From: Desulfocapsa sp.
GTDB taxonomy: Bacteria; Desulfobacterota; Desulfobulbia; Desulfobulbales; Desulfocapsaceae
Assembly (NCBI GenBank): GCA_022712895.1
Contig: JAFLJS010000069.1
Span: 35,034-99,033, forward strand
Length of the DNA: 64,000 nt
Direction of reading: 5' to 3'
Shown here: positions 3 through 47,975 of the stretch, piece after piece
Layout: every line of letters begins with the position of its first letter
Numbering within the stretch: position 1 is the first letter of the stretch
The notes under the pieces: model-generated
Database searches by the model: none
What the model saw: only the letters and a program-made list of their open reading frames with translations
What the model was told of the DNA's origin: nothing
Position numbers and translations under genes: made by a program

Positions 3-632
3 CCTGAACTCAAACGACTCACCAAATCATCATTTGAGTTGGACAAGATGCTCTCCACCGCAAATGACCTTAAATACACCCGAGAAGTAAAAAATTTCCT
101 CGAAAAAGAAATGGCTGCCCCATCGGTTGATTTTGTCAGATTGATCCTGAATGATGTTTACTCAGGAAAAAAGACCCAAATCGTCATCGAGCAATTCACT
201 CCTCTCATTAAAAAAGCGTTTTCTCATTTCGTGAATGATCAAATCAGCGATAGATTAAAATCTGCCATGACGGATCAAACAGAAGATGAGAACAATCAGA
301 TTGATGAAGATGCTGAAAATGAAACCCAAGCAAATGACAATGGAATAGAAACTACAGAAGAAGAAATGGATGGGTTTTATATTGTCAGAGCTATACTCCA
401 TGAGGTTGTTGACGTGAGCAGAGTCATCCACAGAGACACGAAGAGTTATTTTGGAGTCCTTCTCGACGATAACAACAGGAAGCCAATATGCCGGCTTCGT
501 TTTAATACCAGCCAAAAATATATTGGTGTTTTTGACGACCAAAAAGCAGAAACTAAACACGCTATCCAGGGGCTTAATGACATTTATTCATTTGCCGACG
601 AGATAAAACAGGCAATAACATACTACGAGTAG
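3..632 (+). CDS. C-terminal part of a type I restriction HsdR N-terminal-domain (restriction endonuclease-like) protein; 5' end lies before the window
   Basis: Frame is open from base 3 (PELKRLTKSSFELDKM...). Motifs LKYT, IETTEEE-x-GFYIVRAIL and RDTKSYFGVLLDDNNRKPICRL match the C-terminal half of this family as I know it. Confidence 0.7.
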   Translation, partial: PELKRLTKSSFELDKMLSTANDLKYTREVKNFLEKEMAAPSVDFVRLILNDVYSGKKTQIVIEQFTPLIKKAFSHFVNDQISDRLKSAMTDQTEDENNQIDEDAENETQANDNGIETTEEEMDGFYIVRAILHEVVDVSRVIHRDTKSYFGVLLDDNNRKPICRLRFNTSQKYIGVFDDQKAETKHAIQGLNDIYSFADEIKQAITYYE

Positions 633-645
633 AGAGAAACGCTAC

Positions 646-664
646 TGGGGTCTGGCCCCCCTTT
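646..664. repeat. REP-like palindrome type A, copy 1 (TGGGGTCTGGCCCCCCTTT)
   Basis: GGGG-TCTGG-CCCC hairpin 14 nt after a stop codon; near-identical to 3242-3260. Confidence 0.6.
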
Positions 665-668
665 CCAA

Positions 669-690
669 CTCCAGGGACAGTATACCAAAA
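669..690 (+). repeat. REP-like motif type B, copy 1 (CTCCAGGGACAGTATACCAAAA)
   Basis: 671-684 matches the reverse complement of 5147-5160 at 13/14 positions, including 11 identical bases (GGGACAGTATA). Confidence 0.6.
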
Positions 691-804
691 GATACAAAAT
701 CAAGGACGGTGAGCAATACCTTGTCAGCGACACCAGTAAAACCAAACGGTGACTTTCATATTGTTGGCAAGGTTATAAGTTCTGTTCTTCTCAAGAAGCA
801 CTAA
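687..804 (+). pseudogene. C-terminal fragment of an S24-family (CI/LexA-like) repressor peptidase domain
   Basis: KRYKIKDGEQYLVSDT (687-734), then a frameshift to DFHIVGKVISSV* (751-804); resembles KRL...LVSDN...F.IIGKVI. The fragment starts right at the type B motif. Confidence 0.4.
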
Positions 805-814
805 CGCAAAATAT

Positions 815-1155
815 ATGCCCAAAAAGTACAAAGACATCTGCAGGATAGACCAGGAGAGTAAATGCAGTCACGGCTGGTTCGTCCGTATCCGCTTCCAGGG
901 GGAAACAAAATCAAAATTCTTCTCTGATAAAAAAATAAAGGCTCAGAAAAAGCTCTAGAATTAGCTGTCAACTGGCGAAATGCTACCGAAATTAAGATTG
1001 GTAAAACACGTACAGACAAGCATGTGACATGGATCGGAAAGAGTGGAAAGCCGAAAAGCACCACTGCTTCCGCCAAAAAACATGGAAAGGACGTAACATT
1101 CATGAAAGCAATAACCATACGACATGAGAAGGAACTGGAACGATTTAAAAGCTGA
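815..1155 (+). pseudogene. AP2-like DNA-binding domain protein, frameshifted at an A7 run (929-935)
   Basis: MPKKYKDICRIDQESKCSHGWFVRIRFQGETKSKFFSDKK; one extra A continues as NKGSEKALELAVNWRNATEIKIGKTRTDKH...KHGKDVTFMKAITIRHEKELERFKS*. HGWxVR...SKFFSDKK...A..WR is an AP2-like signature. Confidence 0.55.
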
Positions 1156-1166
1156 ATGAGGAATAA

Positions 1167-1997
1167 ATGAAATTACTGATCACCATCGTCTTACTCCTGT
1201 ATCCTTTTTCACTGCAGGCATATACCAACGATATTTCGCAAAACATTCGAGAACTAGACAAACAAATTTCCGCAACAAATGACAAAACAAAACGTGCGCA
1301 ATTTTACTCCTACAAGGCAAGACAGTACAGGAACAATGGAGAAGACGAACTTTCCATAAAATCATATTTAAATTCCTTACAACAACACGAAACAGGAGAC
1401 ACCTGGTCAGAACTAGGAAACATCTATTTCAAGGTTGGCCAATACGAAAAATCTGCAAAAGTAGCCAATCATATGCTCAAAAATTTCCCTGCATTCAAAG
1501 TAGACGCCACCGATTTACTTAAAAAATCAAAAACCAAGCTACATGCAATATATCTTAAAGAAAATCCTCCTACCATAATCGTTAATAGTGATTATTTCGG
1601 CCCCAAAGTATCACGGCTTGACATTCTCAAAGAACAAAAGGCTTCACGAACGATTGCCTCGAGTAGATCGAGAAACACAATATATTCAAACTGTAAAGAG
1701 AAATGGGGTAGTGATTATTCCATGGTCGAATATTGCATAAAGAAACAGAGCAAAGCAAATTCAAATGTGCAACGATACAGCGGTGGGATCAGATCAAGAT
1801 GTCAGCAAAAGTGGGGCGATGATTATTCAATGGTTGAATACTGTATAAAAAAACAGACCAAATCCAGCTCAAATGTAAAAAGATACCGCGGTGATATAAA
1901 ATCAAGATGTCAGCAAAAGTGGGGTAATGATTATTCGATGGTTGAATATTGTATAAAAAAACAGACCAAAGCTAGAAACAACATTAATCGTCAATGA
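1167..1997 (+). CDS. Secreted TPR protein with three C-terminal 36-aa Cys-pair (CxxKWGxDYSMVEYC) repeats
   Basis: Signal peptide MKLLITIVLLLYPFSLQA, TPR-like helices (GDTWSELGNIYFKVGQYEKS), AGGA SD upstream, three tandem repeats. Confidence 0.8.
   Translation: MKLLITIVLLLYPFSLQAYTNDISQNIRELDKQISATNDKTKRAQFYSYKARQYRNNGEDELSIKSYLNSLQQHETGDTWSELGNIYFKVGQYEKSAKVANHMLKNFPAFKVDATDLLKKSKTKLHAIYLKENPPTIIVNSDYFGPKVSRLDILKEQKASRTIASSRSRNTIYSNCKEKWGSDYSMVEYCIKKQSKANSNVQRYSGGIRSRCQQKWGDDYSMVEYCIKKQTKSSSNVKRYRGDIKSRCQQKWGNDYSMVEYCIKKQTKARNNINRQ
1692..1997 (+). repeat. Intragenic tandem repeat, 108-bp unit, about 2.8 copies
   Basis: Cys codons that open each unit are at 1692, 1800 and 1908; KWG.DYSMVEYCIKKQ is conserved in all three. 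Confidence 0.9.
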
Positions 1998-2028
1998 TAT
2001 GAAAGCCAAACAAACATAAAAGAATAAG

Positions 2029-2446
2029 ATGCGATTGAAAATATTTTTTACTATTTGCTTAATGTGGGCTACCAGTATTGCTGTTGCCGGAACATTCAAA
2101 GAATGTATAGACGGCAAAGGTCACTCCACCTTCACAAACAACGTCTGCCCTCCTGGTTACCATTTAAAGAACCCACCCAAGAATTCAGTTTGAAGTATAT
2201 AACGGTAGAAAAGAGGAGATCAACAGATTTTACGTAGAAATCCTATATGTTGGAGAAGACAATCACATATTTGGAAAAGACACCGAAGCCATCCGAGATC
2301 TACCTGCAGGATACACCTCGCAATCAATTTTTATGCAACCTTCCATGGGATTTATTTTAAATGGATCTAACACAGAGACAATAACCAACAAAAAGTTCAC
2401 GGTTAATATTTATGTAGAATACGATGGTGTCAGAAAAAAACTAACT
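2029..2446 (+). pseudogene. Secreted DUF4124-like protein with FxLYD-like domain, frameshifted near 2165-2172 and lacking its own stop
   Basis: 2029-2193 gives MRLKIFFTICLMWATSIAVAGTFKECIDGKGHSTFTNNVCPPG (signal peptide + DUF4124-like motif). A +1 shift continues THPRIQFEVYNGRKEEINRFYVEILYVGEDNHIFGKDTEAIRDLPAG and reads in frame into the next gene. Confidence 0.45.
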
Positions 2447-3199
2447 ATGAATATCAAGCAACTTCTCGGGATACTTGGCTCAGCGATTCTCTTTATTGGT
2501 GTTTTCTTGCCAATCTTAAGCCTACCAATTGTCGGTAATATTAATTATTTCAGAAATGGCGAAGGAGATGGTGTCTTTGTCTTAGTTCTCGCCGTCCTCT
2601 CCCTTATCCTCACAATAACAAAGAATTACAAATTTTTGTGGGCTACAGGCGGTGGATCTATCGGGATGATGCTTTTCACCTACTACACTTTCTATTCAGA
2701 GATGTCCAAGCAGCGTGCCTCACTGGAAACGGATCTTGCAGGAAACCCGTTTAAAGGTTTAGCCGAAGCAATGATGCAATCAGTACAAGTACAGTGGGGG
2801 GTTGCAGTTATGATAATCGGAGCTGCCTTAATCCTAGCTGCCGCAATAATAAAGAATGACACACAAATTATTCTTCAGTCTTCAGAGAAACTATCACAGG
2901 AAACAGGATCAGAAGTGATCCCAGAACCCATTGCCGTTCAAAAAATAACAAAACCCATTGCAAGCCCAGACTGGAAAAATATCGGAAAACAACATTTAAA
3001 AAAACAGGAATTTAAAGAAGCTGTTGCAGCACTATCTTACGCACTTAATGGTGAACCAAATAACGGTACTATTTATTACGCACGAGCCGTTGCTTACTCC
3101 AAACTTGCTGATAACCACAAATCTATTGAAGATATCAAAACAGCTGCCAGGCTTGGGCATCCAAAAGCTGTTGAGTATCTTCAGAAGAAGAATGGATGA
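2447..3199 (+). CDS. Multi-pass membrane protein with C-terminal TPR domain (hypothetical)
   Basis: ORF track start is 2333, but MNIKQLLGILGS at 2447 looks like the family's natural start. About 4 hydrophobic segments; C-terminal TPR (EAVAALSYAL...IYYARAVAY...AARLGHPKA). Confidence 0.7.
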   Translation: MNIKQLLGILGSAILFIGVFLPILSLPIVGNINYFRNGEGDGVFVLVLAVLSLILTITKNYKFLWATGGGSIGMMLFTYYTFYSEMSKQRASLETDLAGNPFKGLAEAMMQSVQVQWGVAVMIIGAALILAAAIIKNDTQIILQSSEKLSQETGSEVIPEPIAVQKITKPIASPDWKNIGKQHLKKQEFKEAVAALSYALNGEPNNGTIYYARAVAYSKLADNHKSIEDIKTAARLGHPKAVEYLQKKNG

Positions 3200-3241
3200 A
3201 ATAATGAATATCACTTCTTACAGCAGCTTATCAGAATCTTT

Positions 3242-3260
3242 TGGGGTCTGACCCCATTTT
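3242..3260. repeat. REP-like palindrome type A, copy 2 (TGGGGTCTGACCCCATTTT)
   Basis: Perfect GGGGTC-T-GACCCC hairpin at 3243-3255, 23 nt before the deaminase ATG. Confidence 0.7.
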
Positions 3261-3278
3261 CAAACTCTGGATCAAACC

Positions 3279-4865
3279 ATGGAACAACCCAAAAAAAAAG
3301 TAACCCCAGTAACACCCAAACCACTTTCACTCAAAAAAGATACACCAACTCAATTAATCAACTCAAGAAGGACTGACGAGTTAGTCATCGCCCTTTGTGG
3401 AGCCGTTGGTGCTGGTGTTTCAACAGTGGCACGCGAGGTGAAAAAGGTTCTTGAATTACGTGGCTACGAAACCAGAACCATTAAGATCAGTACCCTTATC
3501 GAATCCTTCCCTGGAACAGTAGCCCATGGAGAAAGTACCTTTGAAAGAACGGAATCTCTACAAACCACAGGGAATCAGCTCAGACAACAATATGGAAACG
3601 ATATTCTTGCTCAACTTACCATCAGAGACATTTCAGGACACAGAAGCGAGTCAACCATAGAGAATAATCAAGAATCAGATACTTACGCAGAAGACTCCTT
3701 AAAGAAAAGAAGACACGCCACAATCATAGATAGCTTAAAAAGCCCTGACGAAGTTGAATTATTAAAAAAAGTCTACAGCAACATGTTCTATCTATTTGGG
3801 GTGCTCTGTAACGACACTCTTCGAAAGAAGAGACTCAAACTAAAAGGCAGTATGTCAGAGACAGATGCCTTACAATTGATGGAAAAAGATAAAAAAGACA
3901 AAGAAAATTATGGGCAACAACTACTAAAGACCTTACAACATGCCGATTTTTTCACAAGAAACAACAGACCGAACACTGACAGTCTCATAAAACCAATTAC
4001 CAGATTTATTGATTTGATGTTAGGGCAAAATAATATCACTCCCACAATCAATGAATTCGGGATGTATATTGCAGAGTCAGCAGCTCGTCGATCAGGTTGT
4101 ATTTCTAGACAAGTTGGTGCCGCAATCCTCACTCCTCCAGGAGACATCATTTCAACTGGAAGAAACGATGTTCCCAAACCATTAGGGGGATTATACGGAG
4201 AGGATGATGGAATAGATGATTGCAGATGTTTTAAGGTCCATGACAAAGCTTGCTCTAATGAAAAGAACAAACGCGACATATTTCACAATATCGAGCAGAT
4301 AATAAAAAACACCTTAACGGCGAGCGAAGACTCAGAAAAAATCTCAGCAATCTCAGCAGAAATACAAGACAATAGTGAAATCAAAGATCTGCTCGAATAT
4401 TCCAAAGCTGTCCATGCCGAAATGGATGCAATTACCAGTGCCGCCCGGATTGGACATTTCCCATTAAAAGGAACAATACTATTCTCAACTACATTCCCAT
4501 GCCACCATTGTGCTAGACATATTGTTGCGTCAGGAATAAAAAAGGTTTACTATATCGAACCATACGAAAAAAGTTTGGCAACAAAATTACATGATGATGC
4601 CATTGAGTTGAACTCACAAGATGACGAAAATGACTCGAAAAAAGTTATCTTTTCACATTTTGAGGGCGTTGCTCCTAAGCAATACTTACACTTATTTTCT
4701 TGCAACAATAGAAAAAAAGACGGTAAACTAAACACTATAAAGTTAACTTCAAAATACCCGACTGTAACATCTTACTTAGATACGTTTCTTGACTATGAAT
4801 CAAAAGTTACAGAATTAGTTGACGATTTATTTGGAAAAATGGGGGAAAGCGAGAATGGAAACTAA
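3279..4865 (+). CDS. Anti-phage dCTP deaminase (P-loop NTPase-like N-terminus + Zn-dependent cytidine-type deaminase; AvcD/DcdV-like)
   Basis: N-terminal ELVIALCGAVGAGVS and IIDSLKSPDE; C-terminal RSGCISRQVGAAI, TGRNDVPK..GGLY, HAEMDA, TTFPCHHCARHIVASGI..VYYIEPY.KS. Confidence 0.9.
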   Translation: MEQPKKKVTPVTPKPLSLKKDTPTQLINSRRTDELVIALCGAVGAGVSTVAREVKKVLELRGYETRTIKISTLIESFPGTVAHGESTFERTESLQTTGNQLRQQYGNDILAQLTIRDISGHRSESTIENNQESDTYAEDSLKKRRHATIIDSLKSPDEVELLKKVYSNMFYLFGVLCNDTLRKKRLKLKGSMSETDALQLMEKDKKDKENYGQQLLKTLQHADFFTRNNRPNTDSLIKPITRFIDLMLGQNNITPTINEFGMYIAESAARRSGCISRQVGAAILTPPGDIISTGRNDVPKPLGGLYGEDDGIDDCRCFKVHDKACSNEKNKRDIFHNIEQIIKNTLTASEDSEKISAISAEIQDNSEIKDLLEYSKAVHAEMDAITSAARIGHFPLKGTILFSTTFPCHHCARHIVASGIKKVYYIEPYEKSLATKLHDDAIELNSQDDENDSKKVIFSHFEGVAPKQYLHLFSCNNRKKDGKLNTIKLTSKYPTVTSYLDTFLDYESKVTELVDDLFGKMGESENGN

Positions 4866-5052
4866 ATCTAAAAACAACAACGATTATCAACAGATTTCTG
4901 TAATGGAGTTCATTGAGACTCTAGCGAACCTCAAAAGAAACGACCCAACCAAACAATCAAAAATCATTCAATTTCCCCCTCACAGGACCACAAAAAAAAG
5001 AAAACAAGCACTCAAGCGAGTTATCAGCTACTCAAAAAGCTTAAACTGGTAG
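4855..5052 (+). CDS. Small (65 aa) basic protein overlapping the deaminase stop
   Basis: ATG 4855 overlaps the deaminase 3' end by 11 nt, with GGGGGAAAG upstream; ends KRKQALKRVISYSKSLNW. Confidence 0.6.
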   Translation: METKSKNNNDYQQISVMEFIETLANLKRNDPTKQSKIIQFPPHRTTKKRKQALKRVISYSKSLNW

Positions 5053-5104
5053 CTGATTGATCAAGCAGTTTCACATCCCCAAGTCACAAATATCCACCAT
5101 TAAG

Positions 5105-5162
5105 TTCTAGGCACAGCATATTTAATAACCGGGATTAACAATTGTATATACTGTCCCAGGAA
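5105..5162. repeat. Inverted doublet of type B REP-like motifs (REPIN-like)
   Basis: TTCTAGGCACAGCATATTTAAT (5105-5126, +) faces the reverse complement of 5140-5162 (TTCCTGGGACAGTATATACAATT); about 16/23 identity, 13-nt spacer. Confidence 0.55.
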
Positions 5163-5210
5163 TCCACGAAACACAATTCTTTATTATACCCCCTGCCGCC
5201 TTTATCAGTT

Positions 5211-5327: not shown

Positions 5328-6296
5328 ATGGCAACAGCAGACCAGATAAAATCATTGATTAGATCGCGTTTTAGTAATGACCCTGAGCGATTTCATTCCA
5401 TTGCGCTTCAAGTAGCAGCCCATGAAGCCCGGCAAGGGCATACTGCTCTGGCTCATGATATTCGTGACATTATCGATGGAGAACGTAAGAAAAAAGGTCC
5501 TCGGATTATTTCGTTCCCCAAAAACCTACAAGGGTTAGTGTTAACCGAAAAGCCATCGACACCATTAACAGCGATGGTTACTCCGACTAGTATTCGAGAT
5601 CGTTTAAATCGGATAGTACATGAATACCGTCAGCAAGAAAAACTAAAATCTCATGGACTGAAACATCGCCGTAAGATACTACTGATTGGCCCTCCCGGAA
5701 CGGGGAAGACCATGAGTGCGATGGTACTAGCCAAAGAACTCCACCTTCAATTACATACGATCCAGGTGGATCGGCTAGTTACCAAATTCATGGGAGAAAC
5801 CAGTGCTAAATTACGTCTGATTTTTGATTTAATACAACAAGAACACGGAGTCTATCTCTTTGATGAGTTCGATGCCATTGGTGGTGATCGTTCCATTGAG
5901 AATGAGGTGGGTGAGATGCGGCGTGTCCTCAATGCTTTCCTCCAATTCATTGAGCAGGATACTTCTGATAGTTTGATTATTGCGGCGACAAACAATCCCA
6001 AACTTTTGGATCGGGCTTTATTCAGACGTTTTGATGATGTACTCTATTACGAAAACCCAGAAACAGAAGAACGAAAATCATTAATTGCCAACGTGTTGGG
6101 AACCTTTATAGCTTCTCGTTTTTCTTGGAAACAAGTTATAAAAGTAAGTGCAGGGCTCAGCCACGCTGAAATAGATCACGCATGCCGTGATGCTATTAAA
6201 AATGCGATCCTTGCCGATCAAAACAAGATCTCTGCCAGTCAACTTCTAGTTACCATCAAAGAACGACAAGGAACACACCAGGGAATTAAAGGGTAA
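5328..6296 (+). CDS. ietA: AAA+ ATPase, IetA-like (IetAS defence/TA system)
   Basis: Walker A GPPGTGKT, Walker B YLFDEFDAIG, SRH ATN...LDRALFRRFD; directly upstream of an S8 peptidase. Confidence 0.85.
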   Translation: MATADQIKSLIRSRFSNDPERFHSIALQVAAHEARQGHTALAHDIRDIIDGERKKKGPRIISFPKNLQGLVLTEKPSTPLTAMVTPTSIRDRLNRIVHEYRQQEKLKSHGLKHRRKILLIGPPGTGKTMSAMVLAKELHLQLHTIQVDRLVTKFMGETSAKLRLIFDLIQQEHGVYLFDEFDAIGGDRSIENEVGEMRRVLNAFLQFIEQDTSDSLIIAATNNPKLLDRALFRRFDDVLYYENPETEERKSLIANVLGTFIASRFSWKQVIKVSAGLSHAEIDHACRDAIKNAILADQNKISASQLLVTIKERQGTHQGIKG

Positions 6297-6302
6297 CCGA
6301 GA

Positions 6303-8810
6303 ATGCCCACAAACGTACCCCATCTTGTTGTAACAGAATTTGATCAAGTAGCTTTTACCGGAACAGGCGGTGGCCAGCCTCCCCACCGCCCTGTTAGGAT
6401 CCGAAATACACATAGCACCTTTTTGAGACAGCAGTTGAAACAGGCTTGGATCGATGCAGAAAATGATAGTGTAGTTTATCATTCCCAACGCAAAGGAGTT
6501 TATCTCGAATTTAAGGGGGAACAAGGCTACGAACTCGTTACCAAAAGTCTTGAAAATTTGCGAGGAGCCAATCAGGATAATTGGACCCGCCTTCTCAATG
6601 TCCGTAAAGAGAGGGTGCCAGTAGAAGGTGAAGTAGAGACAAAAGAGATTGTATTCGCAACCATCTACGTACCAAATTCTAAGAAAGAGCTGCTTTTAAA
6701 GCAAATTGAAAGGTACGCAGATGAGGACAGTCCCTCAGGTCAACCTAAAAATGCCAACTTACTCGAAAGTATTTCCAATATTCGTAAAGCCCTTGAGGTT
6801 GAATCATTCTGGCAGGATGCTGAAGATCTGATTCCGGAAGCTGAACCGGAGTGGTGTGAGGTCTGGCTCAGCTCTGACCGGGCTGAAGTGGTTCAGCGCT
6901 TCAAGGGTATGCTTGACCAACAACAGATAAGTTACAAATCTGGTGAGGTTCGTTTCCCCGAGCGGATAGTCAAAATTATTCATGCCGACCGCAGCCAATT
7001 GGAAACCATCACCAGGCTATCAGATGATATTGCCGAGTATCGGCGGGCCAAAGAGACCGCCGCATTCTGGCTAGACCAGGAAAATAAGGAACAGGCCGAA
7101 TGGGTAGCAGATATCCTTGAACGACTGGAAGCTCCACAGGATTCTGAGGTCGCTATTTGCATTTTGGATACCGGGGTGAATCACGGGCACCCTCTTCTTG
7201 CGCCATGCCTTAAGGGTGAGGATTGTCAAACAGTAGATCCTAACTGGGGCAGCGATGACCATGATAAACATGGCACCTTGATGGCGGGTGTTTCCGCCTA
7301 TGGAAATCTCCAGGAAGTTTTGGATCATAATGAGCTGATCCGTCTTCGACATTGCCTAGAGTCAGTCAAAATTTTACCACCGAATAGATCAACAGAACCT
7401 GAGTTATGGGGATATATAACATCTCAAGCTGTGTCCAAGGCTGTGATACAAGCTGCCGACATGAAACGTATAACCTGTATGGCAATAACTGCAAATGACA
7501 CTAGGGATAAGGGAAGACCTTCGTCTTGGTCTGCGGAACTGGATCAAATATGCTCAGGGGCTGAAGGCGACGAGGAGCAAAAACTCTTTATTGTTAGTGC
7601 GGGCAATTGCAATGAGACAAAAAGTTTGGAAGAGTGCAGTGATTATCCTGAAACACAGTTAGAGGAATCCATTCACGACCCAGCCCAATCCTGGAATGCC
7701 CTAACCGTAGGGGCATTTACCGAGCTTACCCATATCACAGACATTACTCTTGCGGGGTATGACCCAATAGCACCAATAGGTGGCCTCTCTCCTTTTTCTA
7801 CAACGTCTTTAACCTGGGATAATAAATGGCCAATTAAACCAGAAATTGTAATGGAGGGTGGTAATCTTGCAAAAAACACTTCCGGCTTTGTCACTGAGTG
7901 TGATGACCTTTCTTTGCTTTCCACCTTTTTCGATCCCCAGCAGGCCCACTTTTATCCTTTCAATATGACCAGCGCTGCTACAGCTCAAGCTGCATGGTTT
8001 GCAGCACAAATTCAAACAGAGTATCCAGATTATTGGCCAGAGACTATTCGTGGTCTCCTGGTTCATTCAGCTGAATGGACTGATGCATTAAAGAGGCGGT
8101 TTCTGCCTGATGAGACAAAAACTTCCTACAAAAGGTTAATCCGGATTTGCGGATACGGTGTACCCAACCTTGAGAAAGCACGTTTCTCTGCGAGTAATAA
8201 CCTTACTTTAATTGCCCAGTCTGATTTGCAGCCGTTCGACAAGAAAGATAGTGGCAGTGGCTACTGCACAAAAGACATGCATTTATATGAACTTCCATGG
8301 CCTAAAGAAGCCCTTCAGTCTCTTCCAGCCACAACTGAAGTTCAAATGAAAATTACACTCTCATATTTCATTGAGCCTGGGCCTGGTGAAATTGGTTGGC
8401 AGGATCGATACCGCTACCCATCACATGGATTGCGCTTTGACATCAATTCGCCCACGGAATCTAAAGACCAATTTCTCAGGCGAATCAATGTTGGAGCTAG
8501 GGACGAAGAAAACGGTCACCCTGGGACATCCAGCGCTTCAGATCATTGGATGCTTGGGCTAGTGCGTAATAAAGGATCTATTCATTCAGACACTTGGCAA
8601 GGATATGCCTCAGATCTGGCTATGTCGAATTTGATAGCTATTTATCCGACAATTGGCTGGTGGCGTGAACGAGCTCATCTTCAAAAATGGAACAAGAAAA
8701 CTCGTTATGGACTCATTGTCAGTATAACTACAGCTGACCAGAGTATCGATATTTATACACCGGTTGCTGTCCAACTAGGCATTCCGATTCCTGTGGAAAT
8801 AAATGTTTGA
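6303..8810 (+). CDS. ietS: S8 subtilisin-like serine protease, IetS-like
   Basis: Triad motifs ILDTG, HGTLMAG and MTSAA; GRPSSWSAELDQ, DPAQSWNALTVGA, IKPEIVMEGGN; 6-bp gap to the ATPase; no signal peptide. Confidence 0.85.
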   Translation: MPTNVPHLVVTEFDQVAFTGTGGGQPPHRPVRIRNTHSTFLRQQLKQAWIDAENDSVVYHSQRKGVYLEFKGEQGYELVTKSLENLRGANQDNWTRLLNVRKERVPVEGEVETKEIVFATIYVPNSKKELLLKQIERYADEDSPSGQPKNANLLESISNIRKALEVESFWQDAEDLIPEAEPEWCEVWLSSDRAEVVQRFKGMLDQQQISYKSGEVRFPERIVKIIHADRSQLETITRLSDDIAEYRRAKETAAFWLDQENKEQAEWVADILERLEAPQDSEVAICILDTGVNHGHPLLAPCLKGEDCQTVDPNWGSDDHDKHGTLMAGVSAYGNLQEVLDHNELIRLRHCLESVKILPPNRSTEPELWGYITSQAVSKAVIQAADMKRITCMAITANDTRDKGRPSSWSAELDQICSGAEGDEEQKLFIVSAGNCNETKSLEECSDYPETQLEESIHDPAQSWNALTVGAFTELTHITDITLAGYDPIAPIGGLSPFSTTSLTWDNKWPIKPEIVMEGGNLAKNTSGFVTECDDLSLLSTFFDPQQAHFYPFNMTSAATAQAAWFAAQIQTEYPDYWPETIRGLLVHSAEWTDALKRRFLPDETKTSYKRLIRICGYGVPNLEKARFSASNNLTLIAQSDLQPFDKKDSGSGYCTKDMHLYELPWPKEALQSLPATTEVQMKITLSYFIEPGPGEIGWQDRYRYPSHGLRFDINSPTESKDQFLRRINVGARDEENGHPGTSSASDHWMLGLVRNKGSIHSDTWQGYASDLAMSNLIAIYPTIGWWRERAHLQKWNKKTRYGLIVSITTADQSIDIYTPVAVQLGIPIPVEINV

Positions 8811-16358: not shown

Positions 16359-16417
16359 AAAATAGTTTCTATCATTACGGAGTACTAAGGTACGTCGTAA
16401 TGATAGAAAACGTGTAG
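16359..16417. repeat. Dispersed palindromic (REP/MITE-like) element, copy 1
   Basis: 14-bp perfect stem TTTCTATCATTACG / CGTAATGATAGAAA with inner GTAC-TAAG-GTAC; near-identical to 47890-47948. Confidence 0.8.
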
Positions 16418-37124: not shown

Positions 37125-37202
37125 GTCCCCATCGTCTAGTCAGGTCCAGGACACTGGGTTTTCATCCCAGCAACGCCGGTTCGAATCCGACTGGGGACGC
37201 CA
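37125..37202 (+). tRNA. tRNA-Glu(TTC)
   Basis: GTCCCCA/TGGGGAC acceptor stem, CTGGG-TT-TTC-AT-CCCAG, GGTTCGAATCC, CCA. Confidence 0.97.
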
Positions 37203-40895: not shown

Positions 40896-41578
40896 AAACA
40901 CCCCCCACAACTCTATTATTGTTATCCATGAGAACACTTCTGTGTCCAGAGAAACACCGTCTGCTACACATTGCATTACTTTATATAGCTTTTATCTTGC
41001 AGAAGGTATGCCAGAGTAGTTCGTCTTGAAGCTGACGCAGGTAACAGCCTGAATTATCTAATATATAAATTAGGGATAAAGACTTGTTTCATCCACTACT
41101 TGGAAAGGAGTGCCAAATAAACAGACAGTTAGAGAGAAAAACATGGGTTAATGTCTAAAAACAAGACACCTCTTCTACCGGAATTATGGGCTCTGAGGAT
41201 TTTTCTGTTCATTCGGCATACTACTTAAGATACCAATAACGAGTCACCACATTGTTGTTCGGGAAAGGTAAAATAACATTTTAATTTTTGTATGTTCTCA
41301 CCTCTAAATCACTTGTGAGTACCTGCTGCTTCCAGGAATTTAATTCTACTATAAAAACAATATGATTTTCAGATACACGGCCTTCTTCTCCATTTCACAC
41401 CATTTAACCAAAGGTTGATAAAATGATGGTAAGTCAAAATAAACACGTACACTAGCAATCTTACTGTACATCTAATTGTTATTTAACTGAGGATACACAG
41501 AAGAAAACCGTCAGAACGAAAGTACTTGGTTTTCATCACAGCAACGCCTGTTTGAATCTGGCTAGGGAACTAATATGG

Positions 41579-45500: not shown

Positions 45501-46274
45501 ATGAGTAAGTCCAAAGTTATCGCAATCGCAAATCAAAAAGGCGGAGTTGGTAAAACCACTTCTGCAGTAAACCTTGCTGCAGCATTGGCACGAAGGAGAA
45601 AAAAAGTCCTTCTTGTGGATTCTGATCCTCAAGGAAATGCAACTTCAGGTGTTGGTATTCATAGCGGAGATTATGACAAACATTTATACCATTGTTACAC
45701 AAGCGGTACTCCGGCAAAAGAAACACTCATTGTTCCTCGGGAAAAAAGATCTCTTACGCTTATTCCTTCTTCTATAGACCTGGCCGCTGCCGAAATGGAA
45801 CTTTTCCCTGTAAAAGAACGTGAATATGTACTCAAAAAATTACTTGCTACGGTAAGAGAAGACTTTGACTATATAATTATTGATTGCCCACCATCCCTTG
45901 GGCTACTGACGGTTAACAGCCTAACCGCTGCTGACTCAGTTTTAATCCCCATGCAATGTGAGTATTTTGCAATGGAAGGACTTGCTCAGTTAATTAAAAC
46001 CATTCGTTCGGTCAAGAAATCACTAAACACGTCCCTCTATATAGAGGGTCTACTATTAACCATGTTTGACAAGCGAAACCGGCTGACATTCCAAGTAGAG
46101 GAAGAAATCAAAAAACATTTTGGCGATCAGGTCTTCAAAACTGTAATTCCACGAAATGTACGACTTAGTGAAAGTCCGAGCCATGGTCAGACAGTTATCG
46201 ATTACGATATTAAATCTACCGGTGCAAAAGCCTATATCCAATTGGGCAATGAGTTTTTGCGAAACCAAAATTGA
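45501..46274 (+). CDS. parA: Chromosome partitioning ATPase ParA/Soj
   Basis: NQKGGVGKTT, DSDPQGNAT, IDCPPSLG, PMQCEYFA.EGL, IPRNVRLSE.PSHG. Confidence 0.97.
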   Translation: MSKSKVIAIANQKGGVGKTTSAVNLAAALARRRKKVLLVDSDPQGNATSGVGIHSGDYDKHLYHCYTSGTPAKETLIVPREKRSLTLIPSSIDLAAAEMELFPVKEREYVLKKLLATVREDFDYIIIDCPPSLGLLTVNSLTAADSVLIPMQCEYFAMEGLAQLIKTIRSVKKSLNTSLYIEGLLLTMFDKRNRLTFQVEEEIKKHFGDQVFKTVIPRNVRLSESPSHGQTVIDYDIKSTGAKAYIQLGNEFLRNQN

Positions 46275-46285
46275 GAGAATATAAC

Positions 46286-47158
46286 ATGGGAAATCCAAAA
46301 GGACTCGGAAGAGGTGTCGATCTCTTGTTTAACGCCGAGGAAGAAGACGAAAAGTATTTTGAATGTGACGTAAACAATATTATCCCAAATCAATTCCAAC
46401 CTCGTACTCATTTTGACGAAGACAGTTTAAAAGAACTGGCTAATTCAATTAAGGAAAAAGGGGTGATCCAACCATTGGTAGTCACGCCGAATATTGATGG
46501 AAGTTACGGACTTATCGCAGGTGAACGGCGACTCCGAGCCTCAAAAATGGTTGGGTTAAGCTGTGTCCCGGTGGTTATAAGGGAAATTAGTGGCGATGAT
46601 GAATTACTGGAAATTGCACTGATCGAAAATGTACAAAGAAAAGATTTAAACCCAATTGAAGAAGCTGAAGCTTATGAGAAGCTCATTAAGATTTTCTCGT
46701 ATACCCAGGAACAGGCCGCAGAAAAAGTAGGAAAAAAAAGGAGTACTGTCACTAACCGCTTAAGGCTACTACAACTTCCCGATTTTATAAAAGAAGACAT
46801 TGGCCATGGACGACTGACGGAAGGACATTCTAGAGCCATTTTACGCCTTTCCGGGAACGAGACGGCGATGAAGAATGCCAGGGATCAGATCATCTCTAAA
46901 GGTCTTTCCGTTCGCCAGGCTGAGAAATTGACTTCTCGTTTGAAGCAGGAGGGAAGAAAAGATACTACAAGAACAGAGAGTAGACAGAATCATTCGATCC
47001 CACCTTCTTTAACGAATAGTTTGGTAAATAAGGTAACCAATAAACTCGACTCTAAGATACACCTTATTCAAAATGGAACCCGTGGTAAACTTGAAATAGA
47101 GTATTATTCACTCGATCATTTAGAACGACTTGTTGATATGATTGCTGGAGAATCATAA
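46286..47158 (+). CDS. parB: Chromosome partitioning protein ParB/Spo0J
   Basis: GLGRG, PN.FQPR..F, GVIQP, IAGERR.RA, ALIEN.QR.DL.PIEEA. Confidence 0.97.
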   Translation: MGNPKGLGRGVDLLFNAEEEDEKYFECDVNNIIPNQFQPRTHFDEDSLKELANSIKEKGVIQPLVVTPNIDGSYGLIAGERRLRASKMVGLSCVPVVIREISGDDELLEIALIENVQRKDLNPIEEAEAYEKLIKIFSYTQEQAAEKVGKKRSTVTNRLRLLQLPDFIKEDIGHGRLTEGHSRAILRLSGNETAMKNARDQIISKGLSVRQAEKLTSRLKQEGRKDTTRTESRQNHSIPPSLTNSLVNKVTNKLDSKIHLIQNGTRGKLEIEYYSLDHLERLVDMIAGES

Positions 47159-47865: not shown

Positions 47866-47975
47866 GTAAAAAGCTAAATATCCGAGGCGAAAATATTTTC
47901 TATCATTTCGGCGTACTAAGGTACGTCGTAATGATAGAAAATGTGTAGCAACGAAGGAGATGGAGAGTTTTCACC
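47866..47975. repeat. Dispersed palindromic (REP/MITE-like) element, copy 2 (more complete)
   Basis: Same core as 16359-16417 (stem 47896-47941), with loose terminal inverted similarity GTAAAAAGCT ... AGAGTTTTCAC. Confidence 0.8.

What the first reader, a model, noticed from the sequence alone, without database searches (positions are those of the whole stretch)
646..5162. Defence and accessory genes separated by two families of short REP-like junction motifs: a candidate integron-like cassette array without an integron integrase
Seen in sequence: type A palindrome GGGGTCTG(G/A)CCCC at 647-659 and 3243-3255. Type B motif TTCC(A/T)GGGACAGTATA-like at 669-690 (+), 5105-5126 (+, degenerate) and 5140-5162 (-); 671-684 and 5147-5160 match 13/14 in inverted orientation. 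All five copies are intergenic and sit at module boundaries: after the HsdR-N gene, 23 nt before the dCTP deaminase ATG, and after the deaminase + small ORF but before ietAS. A and B lie back to back at 646-690, and an S24 gene fragment begins exactly at that B motif, as if cut there. I found no copies in the other ~58 kb. Established knowledge: HUH Y1 transposases (RAYT/TnpA-REP) recognise short ssDNA hairpins, and REPINs are inverted REP doublets like 5105-5162. Inference: these are cleavage/joining sites of a Y1/RAYT-type system that captures and reshuffles defence cassettes. My association of these exact motifs with Y1 transposase loci is from memory and unverified.
Basis: partly seen in the sequence, partly recalled or inferred. 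Interest (0 to 1): 0.8.

Follow-up and report, generated by a model that had tools for sequence, protein, structure and literature searches.

The report
Decayed REP/REPIN relics between defence genes
The short motifs between these anti-phage genes are real, worn-out copies of two families of bacterial repeat elements (REP/REPIN) that a special transposase (RAYT) multiplies in other genomes; nothing shows that they work as an integron-like system for capturing genes.

Summary
GGGGTCTGRCCCC occurs twice (647-659, 3243-3255). The TTCCWGGGACAGTATA motif occurs three times (666-692 +, 5102-5128 +, 5139-5165 -). All copies are extragenic, and none lies in the other 58 kb.

Both motifs belong to REP/REPIN families that are multi-copy elsewhere.
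- Motif A has the same core as REPs in many phyla. That core flanks Y1_Tnp (RAYT) genes in Desulfobotulus, Sutcliffiella/Bacillus and Clostridium.
- Motif B is the arm of a hairpin element with more than 120 copies in metagenomes. Its arms flank a RAYT gene in L394.

The cassette-capture idea is not supported.
- There is no RAYT gene in the window.
- 1.2 Mb from relatives holds neither a convincing RAYT nor motif A, and only one chance-level B core.
- The window copies are decayed; the doublet no longer folds.
- Elsewhere both families sit beside ordinary genes.
- Deaminase homologues lack the motifs.
- Some rearrangement joints in sister strains lie inside ORFs.
- A and B never co-occur elsewhere.

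Most likely the copies are passive relics carried in on horizontally acquired modules, marking the seams of a mosaic defence island in a Desulfocapsa-like genome. Interest is modest.

The parts
3..632 (+).
   Evidence: phrog_4225 'endonuclease' 1.8e-57. No Pfam or NCBIfam family. Sister-strain homology stops at 635/636.
637..669 (+). A1: solitary, degraded REP hairpin (core GGGGTCTGGCCCC at 647-659)
   Evidence: PWM score 16.9 against a shuffle maximum of 7.7. Weak hairpin, -3.5 kcal/mol, z -0.5.
666..692 (+). B1: solo arm of the GGGGACAGTATAC REPIN family; abuts A1
   Evidence: PWM score 22.8. It matches the consensus arm GAATTCCGGGGACAGTATACC taken from more than 120 metagenome copies. No partner arm is present.
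681..804 (+). Possible C-terminal scrap of a phage-repressor/S24-like gene, with a frameshift
   Evidence: Translations. Weak phrog_4 hit, E 0.013. No Pfam or PDB hit. Sister-strain contigs match 731-788.
815..1155 (+). AP2-like DNA-binding pseudogene, frameshifted in an A-run near 935
   Evidence: Sequence. The read-through translation hits Pfam AP2 at E 2e-4, below the cut-off.
1167..1997 (+). TPR protein gene with three 108-nt tandem coding repeats (1686-2009)
2029..2193 (+). Small ORF of 54 aa, probably secreted
   Evidence: sequence. A sister-strain joint lies at 2117, inside this ORF.
2333..3199 (+). Membrane/TPR protein gene (288 aa)
   Evidence: Several sister-strain contigs diverge right after its stop, at 3188-3207.
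3233..3265 (+). A2: solitary REP hairpin (core GGGGTCTGACCCC at 3243-3255), 23 nt before the deaminase ATG
   Evidence: PWM score 30.4. Hairpin -5.3 kcal/mol, z -3.0. Retained in sister strain X6 with a G3250A change. Not called as an intrinsic terminator.
3279..4865 (+). Anti-phage dCTP deaminase
   Evidence: PADLOC dCTPase 2.9e-166. NCBIfam NF041025, 481 bits, above the cut-off of 400.
4855..5052 (+). Conserved 65-aa partner ORF overlapping the end of the deaminase gene
   Evidence: The same small ORF, ending ...AL.RVI...KSLNW*, follows the 70%-identical deaminases in L121 and L122.
5102..5165 (.). Decayed REPIN: left arm 5102-5128 (+), right arm 5139-5165 (-)
   Evidence: PWM scores 15.8 and 28.3. 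The loop and arms resemble L350-type copies. It no longer folds: -3 kcal/mol, z +0.4. A sister strain has the intact left arm TTCCGGGGACAGCATAC at the same place.
5328..8810 (+). ietA (5328-6296) and ietS (6303-8810) defence pair
   Evidence: PADLOC IetA 5.4e-74 and IetS 3.7e-38. Pfam AAA and Peptidase_S8. Both are below the NCBIfam equivalog cut-offs.

Best explanation
The five motif copies are degraded, non-autonomous REP/REPIN sequences from two different RAYT-associated repeat families. A1 and A2 are solitary REP hairpins of the GGGGTC(T/A)GACCCC family. B1 is a solo arm, and 5102-5165 is a decayed two-arm REPIN, of the TTCCGGGGACAGTATAC family.

In their home genomes a single-copy Y1 (HUH) transposase, RAYT, recognises these hairpins on single-stranded DNA and multiplies them into extragenic space. 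That mechanism is established knowledge: PMC3116915, PMC2817692, PMC3479197.

Inference: this Desulfocapsa-like chromosome shows neither the enzyme nor other copies. The relics therefore most likely arrived as passengers in the intergenic ends of horizontally acquired gene modules (accessory TPR genes, dCTP deaminase plus partner, ietAS) that came from different REP-bearing donors. They have been decaying since. They mark the seams of a mosaic defence island built by ordinary recombination, replacement and deletion. Because a REP can survive only between genes, it automatically sits at module boundaries. At most the copies now act as weak hairpins; A2 could attenuate read-through into the deaminase gene.
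For: Identity
- The A core is multi-copy in many phyla.
- The A core lies next to Y1_Tnp genes in L014, L068, L069, L083 and L111.
- The B doublet pattern has more than 120 metagenome hits, against fewer than about 1 expected by chance.
- Canonical B copies are strong ssDNA hairpins.
- Two B arms on each side, inverted, flank a RAYT gene in L394.
- The RAYT clade shares a flank core.

Decay
- The window doublet does not fold, and A1 is weak.
- The left arm carries 3-4 substitutions, while sister strain X6 keeps an intact arm at the same site.

Foreign origin
- There are no copies in the other 58 kb.
- 1.2 Mb of Desulfobulbales DNA has no A copy and one chance-level B core.
- GC content is 39% at 1-6 kb, against 42-49% in most 2-kb windows beyond 6 kb (range 38-49%).
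- A and B never co-occur in 884 kb of A loci or 574 kb of B loci.

Not cassette-specific
- Genes next to B copies fall into 146 Pfam families among 150 proteins, all ordinary.
- Genes next to A copies fall into 180 families among 142 proteins, ordinary apart from Y1_Tnp.
- Deaminase homologues lack both motifs.
- None of the island proteins is encoded in the B loci.

Messy recombination
- Sister-strain joints 2117->5176 and 5008->2493 have ends inside ORFs.
Against: - The rest of the source genome could not be read; its 99-kb contig could not be retrieved. A resident RAYT and more copies elsewhere are therefore not excluded.
- Five relics of two families in 4.5 kb is dense.
- A1 and B1 abut directly.
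- Every sister-strain block end that I could place near a gene end lies in a motif-bearing spacer: 635/636 next to A1, 3188-3207 about 40 nt before A2, and 5091-5180 around the REPIN.
- Homology of the deaminase 5' leader to L122 appears to begin immediately after the A2 core.
- REPIN-RAYT systems are described as mostly vertically inherited (bioRxiv 10.1101/2022.05.22.493013). Passive horizontal transfer of copies is therefore an inference.
Confidence: 0.6

Rival explanations
1. Resident REPIN populations. The host genome encodes one or two RAYTs outside the window and carries A- and B-type REP/REPINs at low density. These copies were inserted in place, into the only non-coding DNA available, and play no part in moving the neighbouring genes.
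For: - Several Desulfobulbales genomes do encode RAYTs of this clade, though with other REP variants (L286, L287, L290, L303).
- Sister strains carry the REPIN at the same place upstream of ietA.
- One GGGGACAGTATAT occurs in a Desulfocapsa-like MAG (L154).
- REPIN-RAYT systems are reported to be vertically inherited (bioRxiv 10.1101/2022.05.22.493013).
Against: - There is no copy in the other 58 kb.
- 1.2 Mb of relatives holds none beyond that single B-like core.
- No RAYT is encoded in the window.
- The copies are decayed.
- The two families never share a locus elsewhere.
Confidence: 0.2
2. A and B are cleavage and joining sites at which a Y1/RAYT-type enzyme, acting in trans, captures, excises and reshuffles defence modules. 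The result would be a functional analogue of an integron cassette array.
For: - The motifs really are RAYT substrates in other genomes.
- The deaminase module (about 3256-5091) is bracketed by A2 and the REPIN.
- Sister-strain block ends fall in the motif-bearing spacers, and different left-hand contexts join at the REPIN.
- L014 shows nine REPs separating small accessory genes (TA, Fic, PD-(D/E)XK-like) around a RAYT.
Against: - No RAYT is nearby.
- The sites are decayed, and the doublet cannot form its hairpin.
- Block ends lie 11-44 nt from the A cores rather than at a fixed position.
- Two joints lie inside ORFs.
- Deaminase modules in the 26 other genomes fetched lack the motifs.
- Neither family shows a defence bias elsewhere.
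- A and B belong to different genomes elsewhere.
- No paper in the library links RAYT to gene capture or to defence islands.
Confidence: 0.06
3. The motifs are ordinary local signals: intrinsic terminators (A) and an ietAS operator or regulatory hairpin (B). Their resemblance to each other would be convergence or chance.
For: - A2 is a 6-bp G+C-rich stem followed by ATTTT, just downstream of a gene.
- The doublet lies 165 nt upstream of ietA.
- A 14/16 match between two 16-mers somewhere within 5 kb is expected by chance about 3 times (my own calculation).
Against: - The terminator scan calls neither A copy.
- PWMs built from external copies pick exactly these five sites and nothing else.
- The B element occurs more than 120 times in unrelated gene contexts, with no ietA nearby.
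- The doublet has no stable fold.
Confidence: 0.08

Closest known systems
REP sequences and REPINs mobilised by RAYT (TnpA-REP) Y1 HUH transposases (Nunvar 2010, PMC2817692; Bertels & Rainey 2011, PMC3116915; Messing 2012, PMC3479197)
   Same: - Short extragenic palindromes (A) and inverted REP doublets with a short spacer (B).
- The same sequences flank single Y1_Tnp genes in inverted orientation in other genomes.
- High copy number in those genomes.
   Different: - Only five decayed copies here, with no RAYT in 64 kb.
- Two families occur side by side that are never found together elsewhere.
- The cores GGGGTCWGACCCC and GGGGACAGTATAC do not appear in any paper of the searchable library. They also lack the GTAG/CGTC tags of the classical super-families (PMC3733652; the tag comparison is by eye only).
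- The RAYTs score below the NCBIfam REP_Tyr_transpos cut-off (66-68 bits against 80).
Integron cassette arrays (IntI tyrosine recombinase, attI, attC)
   Same: Genes in one orientation, separated by short imperfect inverted repeats that can fold on single-stranded DNA.
   Different: - No IntI was identified among the window ORFs scanned with Pfam.
- The motifs show no RYYYAAC/GTTRRRY attC cores.
- Two unrelated motif types are present, and not every gene junction has one.
- Pseudogene scraps lie between the motifs.
IS200/IS605-family elements and their hairpin-bounded ssDNA transposition
   Same: Y1 HUH chemistry on subterminal hairpins is the inferred mechanism for the parent repeat families.
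   Different: There is no tnpA or tnpB inside any motif-bounded segment. The segments are not bounded by a matched left-end/right-end pair.
Defence islands as mosaics of independently exchanged modules
   Same: dCTP deaminase and IetAS lie next to restriction-type and accessory genes. GC content is low. Sister strains differ module by module.
   Different: The seams here happen to retain recognisable repeat relics from the presumed donor genomes.

Membership tests
REP (RAYT-associated), motif A | Short imperfect palindrome able to form a hairpin | tested here: met
   A2: -5.3 kcal/mol, z -3.0. A1 is weaker: -3.5 kcal/mol, z -0.5.
REP (RAYT-associated), motif A | Extragenic location | tested here: met
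   Both copies lie between ORFs. In other genomes 131 of 152 cores lie outside long ORFs.
REP (RAYT-associated), motif A | The same sequence flanks a RAYT gene | tested here: met
   Met in other genomes only: L014, L083, L068, L069, L111. Y1_Tnp is the top family beside A cores. There is no RAYT in this window.
REP (RAYT-associated), motif A | High copy number within the host genome | tested here: inconclusive
   Two copies in 64 kb and none in 1.2 Mb of relatives. The rest of the source genome could not be read.
REPIN, motif B doublet 5102-5165 | Two REP arms in inverted orientation with a short spacer | tested here: met
   Arms at 5102-5128 (+) and 5139-5165 (-). The layout is the same as in more than 120 metagenome copies.
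REPIN, motif B doublet 5102-5165 | Forms a long stable hairpin on single-stranded DNA | tested here: not met
   Window copy: -3 kcal/mol, z +0.4. Canonical copies: -22.6 and -28 kcal/mol, z -8.9 and -11.7. It is a decayed member.
REPIN, motif B doublet 5102-5165 | Cognate RAYT flanked by the same arms | tested here: met
   In L394 two direct arms lie upstream and two inverted arms downstream of a Y1-type gene. This was not found in the window.
Integron cassette array | IntI integrase with attI next to the array | tested here: not met
   No integrase family was found among the window ORFs scanned with Pfam. The left end of the island lies outside the window.
Integron cassette array | attC sites with R''/L''...L'/R' cores (RYYYAAC ... 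GTTRRRY) at every cassette end | tested here: not met
   By inspection, the motif sequences contain no such cores. The junctions 1998-2028 and 2194-2332 carry no motif.
Intrinsic terminator (A1, A2) | G+C-rich stem-loop followed by a T-run | tested here: not met
   The consensus scan does not list either site. A2 comes close, with a 6-bp stem followed by ATTTT.
Anti-phage dCTP deaminase | Score above the curated equivalog cut-off | tested here: met
   NF041025: 481 bits against a cut-off of 400. PADLOC 2.9e-166.
IetAS | Adjacent AAA ATPase and S8 protease matching the IetA and IetS profiles | tested here: met
   PADLOC IetA 5.4e-74 and IetS 3.7e-38. Both are below the NCBIfam equivalog cut-offs, so this is a divergent pair.

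The most novel reading that the evidence does not exclude
REP/REPIN hairpins, intact or recently intact, serve as preferred seams at which defence and accessory modules are inserted or swapped. The enzyme could be a RAYT acting in trans or another hairpin- or ssDNA-directed recombination route. If so, REP relics would systematically mark module junctions in variable islands. The evidence leaves this open because block ends in sister strains fall in exactly the motif-bearing spacers, and because two foreign REP families abut at 647-692.
Probability: 0.1. Interest if true: 0.7.

Novelty: new member of a known kind. Interest (0 to 1): 0.3.

Why it matters
For this locus the result mostly removes a tempting over-interpretation: short hairpin motifs between defence genes need not be recombination sites.

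Two by-products may be useful.
- Two REP/REPIN families with RAYT partners turn out to be widespread, yet I could not find either sequence in the literature library. GGGGTCWGACCCC occurs in at least eight phyla. TTCCGGGGACAGTATAC hairpins are abundant in metagenome contigs.
- Foreign REP relics can serve as provenance marks. They show that neighbouring modules of a defence island came from different donor lineages.

If REP hairpins proved to be real exchange points, that would add a mechanism to defence-island assembly. The present data do not show this.

Tried and rejected
- Rfam at gathering thresholds found only four tRNAs.
- The source genome is not in the GTDB representative set. The best deaminase match is 70% identical and the best GatB match 92%, to Desulfocapsa MAGs. 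Its 99-kb NCBI contig is on record but could not be retrieved.
- Same-strain metagenome contigs have the identical arrangement, so they give no polymorphism information.
- Sister-strain proteins are not in the protein collection. I could therefore see their contigs only as 30-letter loose ends from read laying.
- An attempt to read the 101 letters that replace 5092-5161 in run X6 failed, because a stretch ending at the breakpoint shows no loose end.
- The S24 assignment had no Pfam, PDB or local phmmer support. Only a weak PHROG hit exists.
- Literature searches for both motif strings returned only primer coincidences. Two REP survey papers do not contain these cores.
- I first thought the TTTYCAA flank shared by A1 and A2 showed a longer repeat. 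However, my search pattern forced that flank in the external copies, and part of A2's flank is shared with the REP-less deaminase leader of L122. I give it no weight.
- A transposon bounded by the B1 and B3 inverted repeats (669-5162) was rejected. The B arms belong to a hairpin element whose natural partner for B3 is B2, 11 nt away, and no transposase lies inside the segment.

Full report
**What is in the sequence**

The stretch 1-9 kb of the window reads as follows.
- 3-632: the 3' part of an endonuclease-like gene (phrog_4225, 1.8e-57; no Pfam or NCBIfam family).
- 633-1166: a 530-nt non-coding patch. It holds motif A1, motif B1, a possible repressor/S24-like C-terminal scrap with a frameshift (weak phrog_4 hit, E 0.013) and a frameshifted AP2-like pseudogene.
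- 1167-1997: a TPR gene with three 108-nt coding repeats.
- 2029-2193: a 54-aa ORF.
- 2333-3199: a membrane/TPR gene.
- Motif A2.
- 3279-4865: an anti-phage dCTP deaminase (PADLOC 2.9e-166; NCBIfam equivalog passed).
- 4855-5052: a conserved 65-aa partner ORF, also present after the deaminases of L121 and L122.
- The B doublet.
- 5328-8810: ietA and ietS.
- From 9296 on: ordinary chromosomal genes (DUF4136, an SDR, transporters, gatB, tRNAs, parAB).

GatB is 92% identical to Desulfocapsa MAGs, so the host is a Desulfocapsa-like member of the Desulfobulbales. The first 6 kb has 39% G+C, against 42-49% in most 2-kb windows beyond 6 kb (range 38-49%).

**Checking the observation**

To avoid circularity I built weight matrices from copies of the motifs in other organisms and scanned the window. 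Matrix B scores 28.3, 22.8 and 15.8 at 5139-5165 (-), 666-692 (+) and 5102-5128 (+); the next best site scores 1.8. Matrix A scores 30.4 and 16.9 at 3233-3265 and 637-669; the next independent site scores -3.0. Shuffle maxima average 2.9 for B and -2.3 for A.

So there are five copies in 4.5 kb and none in the other 58 kb.

Taken alone, a 14/16 inverted match within 5 kb is expected a few times by chance (my calculation). It is the external evidence below that makes the B copies real.

**What motif A is**

Many of the loci carry several copies. They come from Planctomycetota, Acidobacteriota, Bacillota, Spirochaetota, Desulfobacterota, Alpha-, Beta- and Gammaproteobacteria, and Actinomycetota. 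Typical copies read aaaaGGGGTCTGACCCCtttt, often as inverted pairs.

In a Desulfobotulus contig (L014) nine copies separate eight small genes. One of those genes is a Y1_Tnp protein with the HVHLL motif, and copies of the motif lie on both sides of it.

Y1_Tnp genes also sit next to the core in Sutcliffiella/Bacillus (L068, L069, L111) and in Clostridium moutaii (L083), where the gene is flanked on both sides. Among 142 genes lying beside A cores in other genomes, Y1_Tnp is the most frequent family, with 4 members. The rest are ordinary genes such as EPSP synthase, SpoIID and ribosomal protein L6.

Motif A is therefore a REP of a RAYT system.

**What motif B is**

I estimate fewer than one hit by chance.

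The copies are long inverted repeats with the consensus arm GAATTCCGGGGACAGTATACCTAATTC and a variable loop. As single-stranded DNA they fold at -22 to -28 kcal/mol, with z -9 to -12.

Five of the 120 contigs encode RAYT homologues. In L394 the gene is preceded by two direct arms and followed by two inverted arms. Its best NCBIfam match is 'REP-associated tyrosine transposase', below the cut-off.

The genes next to these elements fall into 146 Pfam families among 150 proteins. They are ordinary genes such as AcrB, OmpA and GGDEF. None of the island's proteins occurs in these contigs.

The window's doublet most resembles the L350 sub-type in its loop and arms.

**The enzyme clade links A and B**

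I fetched 80 loci of the RAYT clade defined by alignment A1. In about 70 of them the gene is flanked by inverted repeats, most built on a GGGG[AT]C[AG]G core. Examples are AAAGGGGTCAGACCCCT, AAAAGGGGACAGATTTATTT, GGGGACAGACCACG and TAGGGACAGTCCCT. Both A (reverse complement GGGGTCAGACCCC) and B (GGGACAGTATA) fit this core.

**Why the cassette-capture reading does not follow**

1. No RAYT is encoded in the window. In 80 gatB loci of Desulfobulbales (1.2 Mb) there is only one marginal RAYT-like hit (E 8e-4), no A core, and one B-like core at chance level.
2. The window copies are worn. The doublet's left arm has 3-4 substitutions and the element no longer folds (-3 kcal/mol, z +0.4). A1 is a 4-bp stem. 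A sister strain retains an intact left arm, TTCCGGGGACAGCATAC, at the same place, so the decay is recent and local.
3. The dCTP deaminase loci fetched from 26 other genomes have neither motif.
4. In other genomes both families lie at ordinary gene ends.
5. A and B never share a locus: 884 kb of A loci hold 269 A cores and no B arm, and 574 kb of B loci hold 278 B arms and no A core. One enzyme system using both is therefore unlikely. Different donors are the simpler reading.
6. The library holds no paper connecting RAYT to gene capture or to defence islands.

**Sister strains**

Contigs from four metagenome runs (X5-X8) carry relatives 85-95% identical to the window.
- Homology to the gene at 3-632 stops at 635/636. 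It continues with unrelated sequence that lacks A1.
- Several contigs diverge within a few bases of the stop codon of the 288-aa gene (3188-3207). One X6 contig runs on through A2 into the deaminase gene, with G3250A in the hairpin loop.
- The segment 5092-5161, essentially the REPIN, is replaced by 101 letters in X6 and by 79 letters in X7.
- Other contigs join different left-hand DNA at 5137 or 5173-5176.
- Two joints have ends inside ORFs: 2117->5176 and 5008->2493.

The island is therefore mosaic, and its seams lie in the motif-bearing spacers. The breakpoints, however, are not at a fixed position relative to the hairpins, and some are plainly illegitimate. Because these are low-depth short contigs seen only through 30-letter glimpses, this comparison is suggestive rather than decisive.

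**Conclusion**

The most likely account (about 0.6) is that the motifs are passive, decaying REP/REPIN relics. They were brought in at the intergenic ends of modules acquired from different REP-bearing donors, and they mark the seams of a mosaic defence island.

The rivals are:
- a resident low-density REPIN population with a RAYT elsewhere in the genome (about 0.2);
- plain terminators or regulatory hairpins (about 0.08; the terminator scan lists neither A copy);

The kind of element is known. The two families appear to be undescribed by sequence, so I file this as a new member of a known kind, of modest interest.

Noticed in passing
window 37125-37202 and 41524-41568: The last 45 nt of tRNA-Glu (37153-37197) recur 84% identical at 41524-41568. 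The repeats bracket about 4.3 kb holding an NHL-repeat protein, a MetA-like outer-membrane protein, an HMA-domain protein and a truncated histidine kinase. This looks like an att-type duplication of an old tRNA-inserted islet with no integrase left.
   Followed up: partly
window 16359-16417 and 47890-47948: A 59-nt sequence occurs twice, 93% identical and 31.5 kb apart. It is itself a near-perfect palindrome (arms of 22 nt, 91% complementary) and both copies are intergenic. It is a third repeat type, unrelated to A and B.
   Followed up: no
window 1686-2009: Three tandem 108-nt repeats (74% and 67% identity) inside the 276-aa TPR gene encode a 36-aa Cys-containing unit (...KWG.DYSMVEYCIKKQ...). 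Assemblies of the same strain break here.
   Followed up: no
window 4855-5052; L121 2797-2988; L122 3741-3929: The anti-phage dCTP deaminase is followed, with an 11-nt overlap, by a small ORF (about 63-65 aa) with a conserved end (IIQFP ... RK.AL.RVI...KSLNW*). It is present in three genomes whose deaminases are 70% identical. It may be an unrecognised partner gene.
   Followed up: partly
L001-L120 (genome contigs): The identical 13-nt REP core GGGGTCTGACCCC is multi-copy in genomes of at least eight phyla. One Planctomycetota MAG has dozens of inverted pairs about 55-65 nt apart. REP families are usually lineage-specific, and no paper in the library contains this string.
   Followed up: partly
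L233-L312: RAYT genes of one clade (40-52% identical) are flanked by inverted repeats. These differ between genomes but mostly keep a GGGG[AT]C[AG]G core. This suggests a conserved recognition element with a variable remainder.
   Followed up: partly
L313-L432, e.g. L313 2310-2335, L325 11833-11857, L331 11448-11472: Canonical B-type REPINs are often followed by short tandem CCGGAAYT-like repeats, or preceded by tandem partial copies of the arm. This points to replication slippage or repeated insertion at the same site.
   Followed up: no
L014 1-6906 (Desulfobotulus MAG): Nine REP copies in 6.9 kb separate a RAYT gene, a PD-(D/E)XK/YhgA-like gene, a HigA-like antitoxin with its neighbour, a Zn-finger protein and a RhuM/Fic-type gene.
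   Followed up: partly
window 2117/5176 and 5008/2493 (runs X5): Sister-strain contigs join 2117 to 5176 with the 11 extra letters CTCGGAATACT, and join 5008 back to 2493 with AGTAACAAAA. This implies a deletion and a different module order in related strains, with ends inside ORFs. Each joint rests on a single low-depth contig.
   Followed up: partly
window 45501-47158: A parA/parB pair next to tRNA clusters suggests that the window lies near the chromosomal origin region.
   Followed up: no
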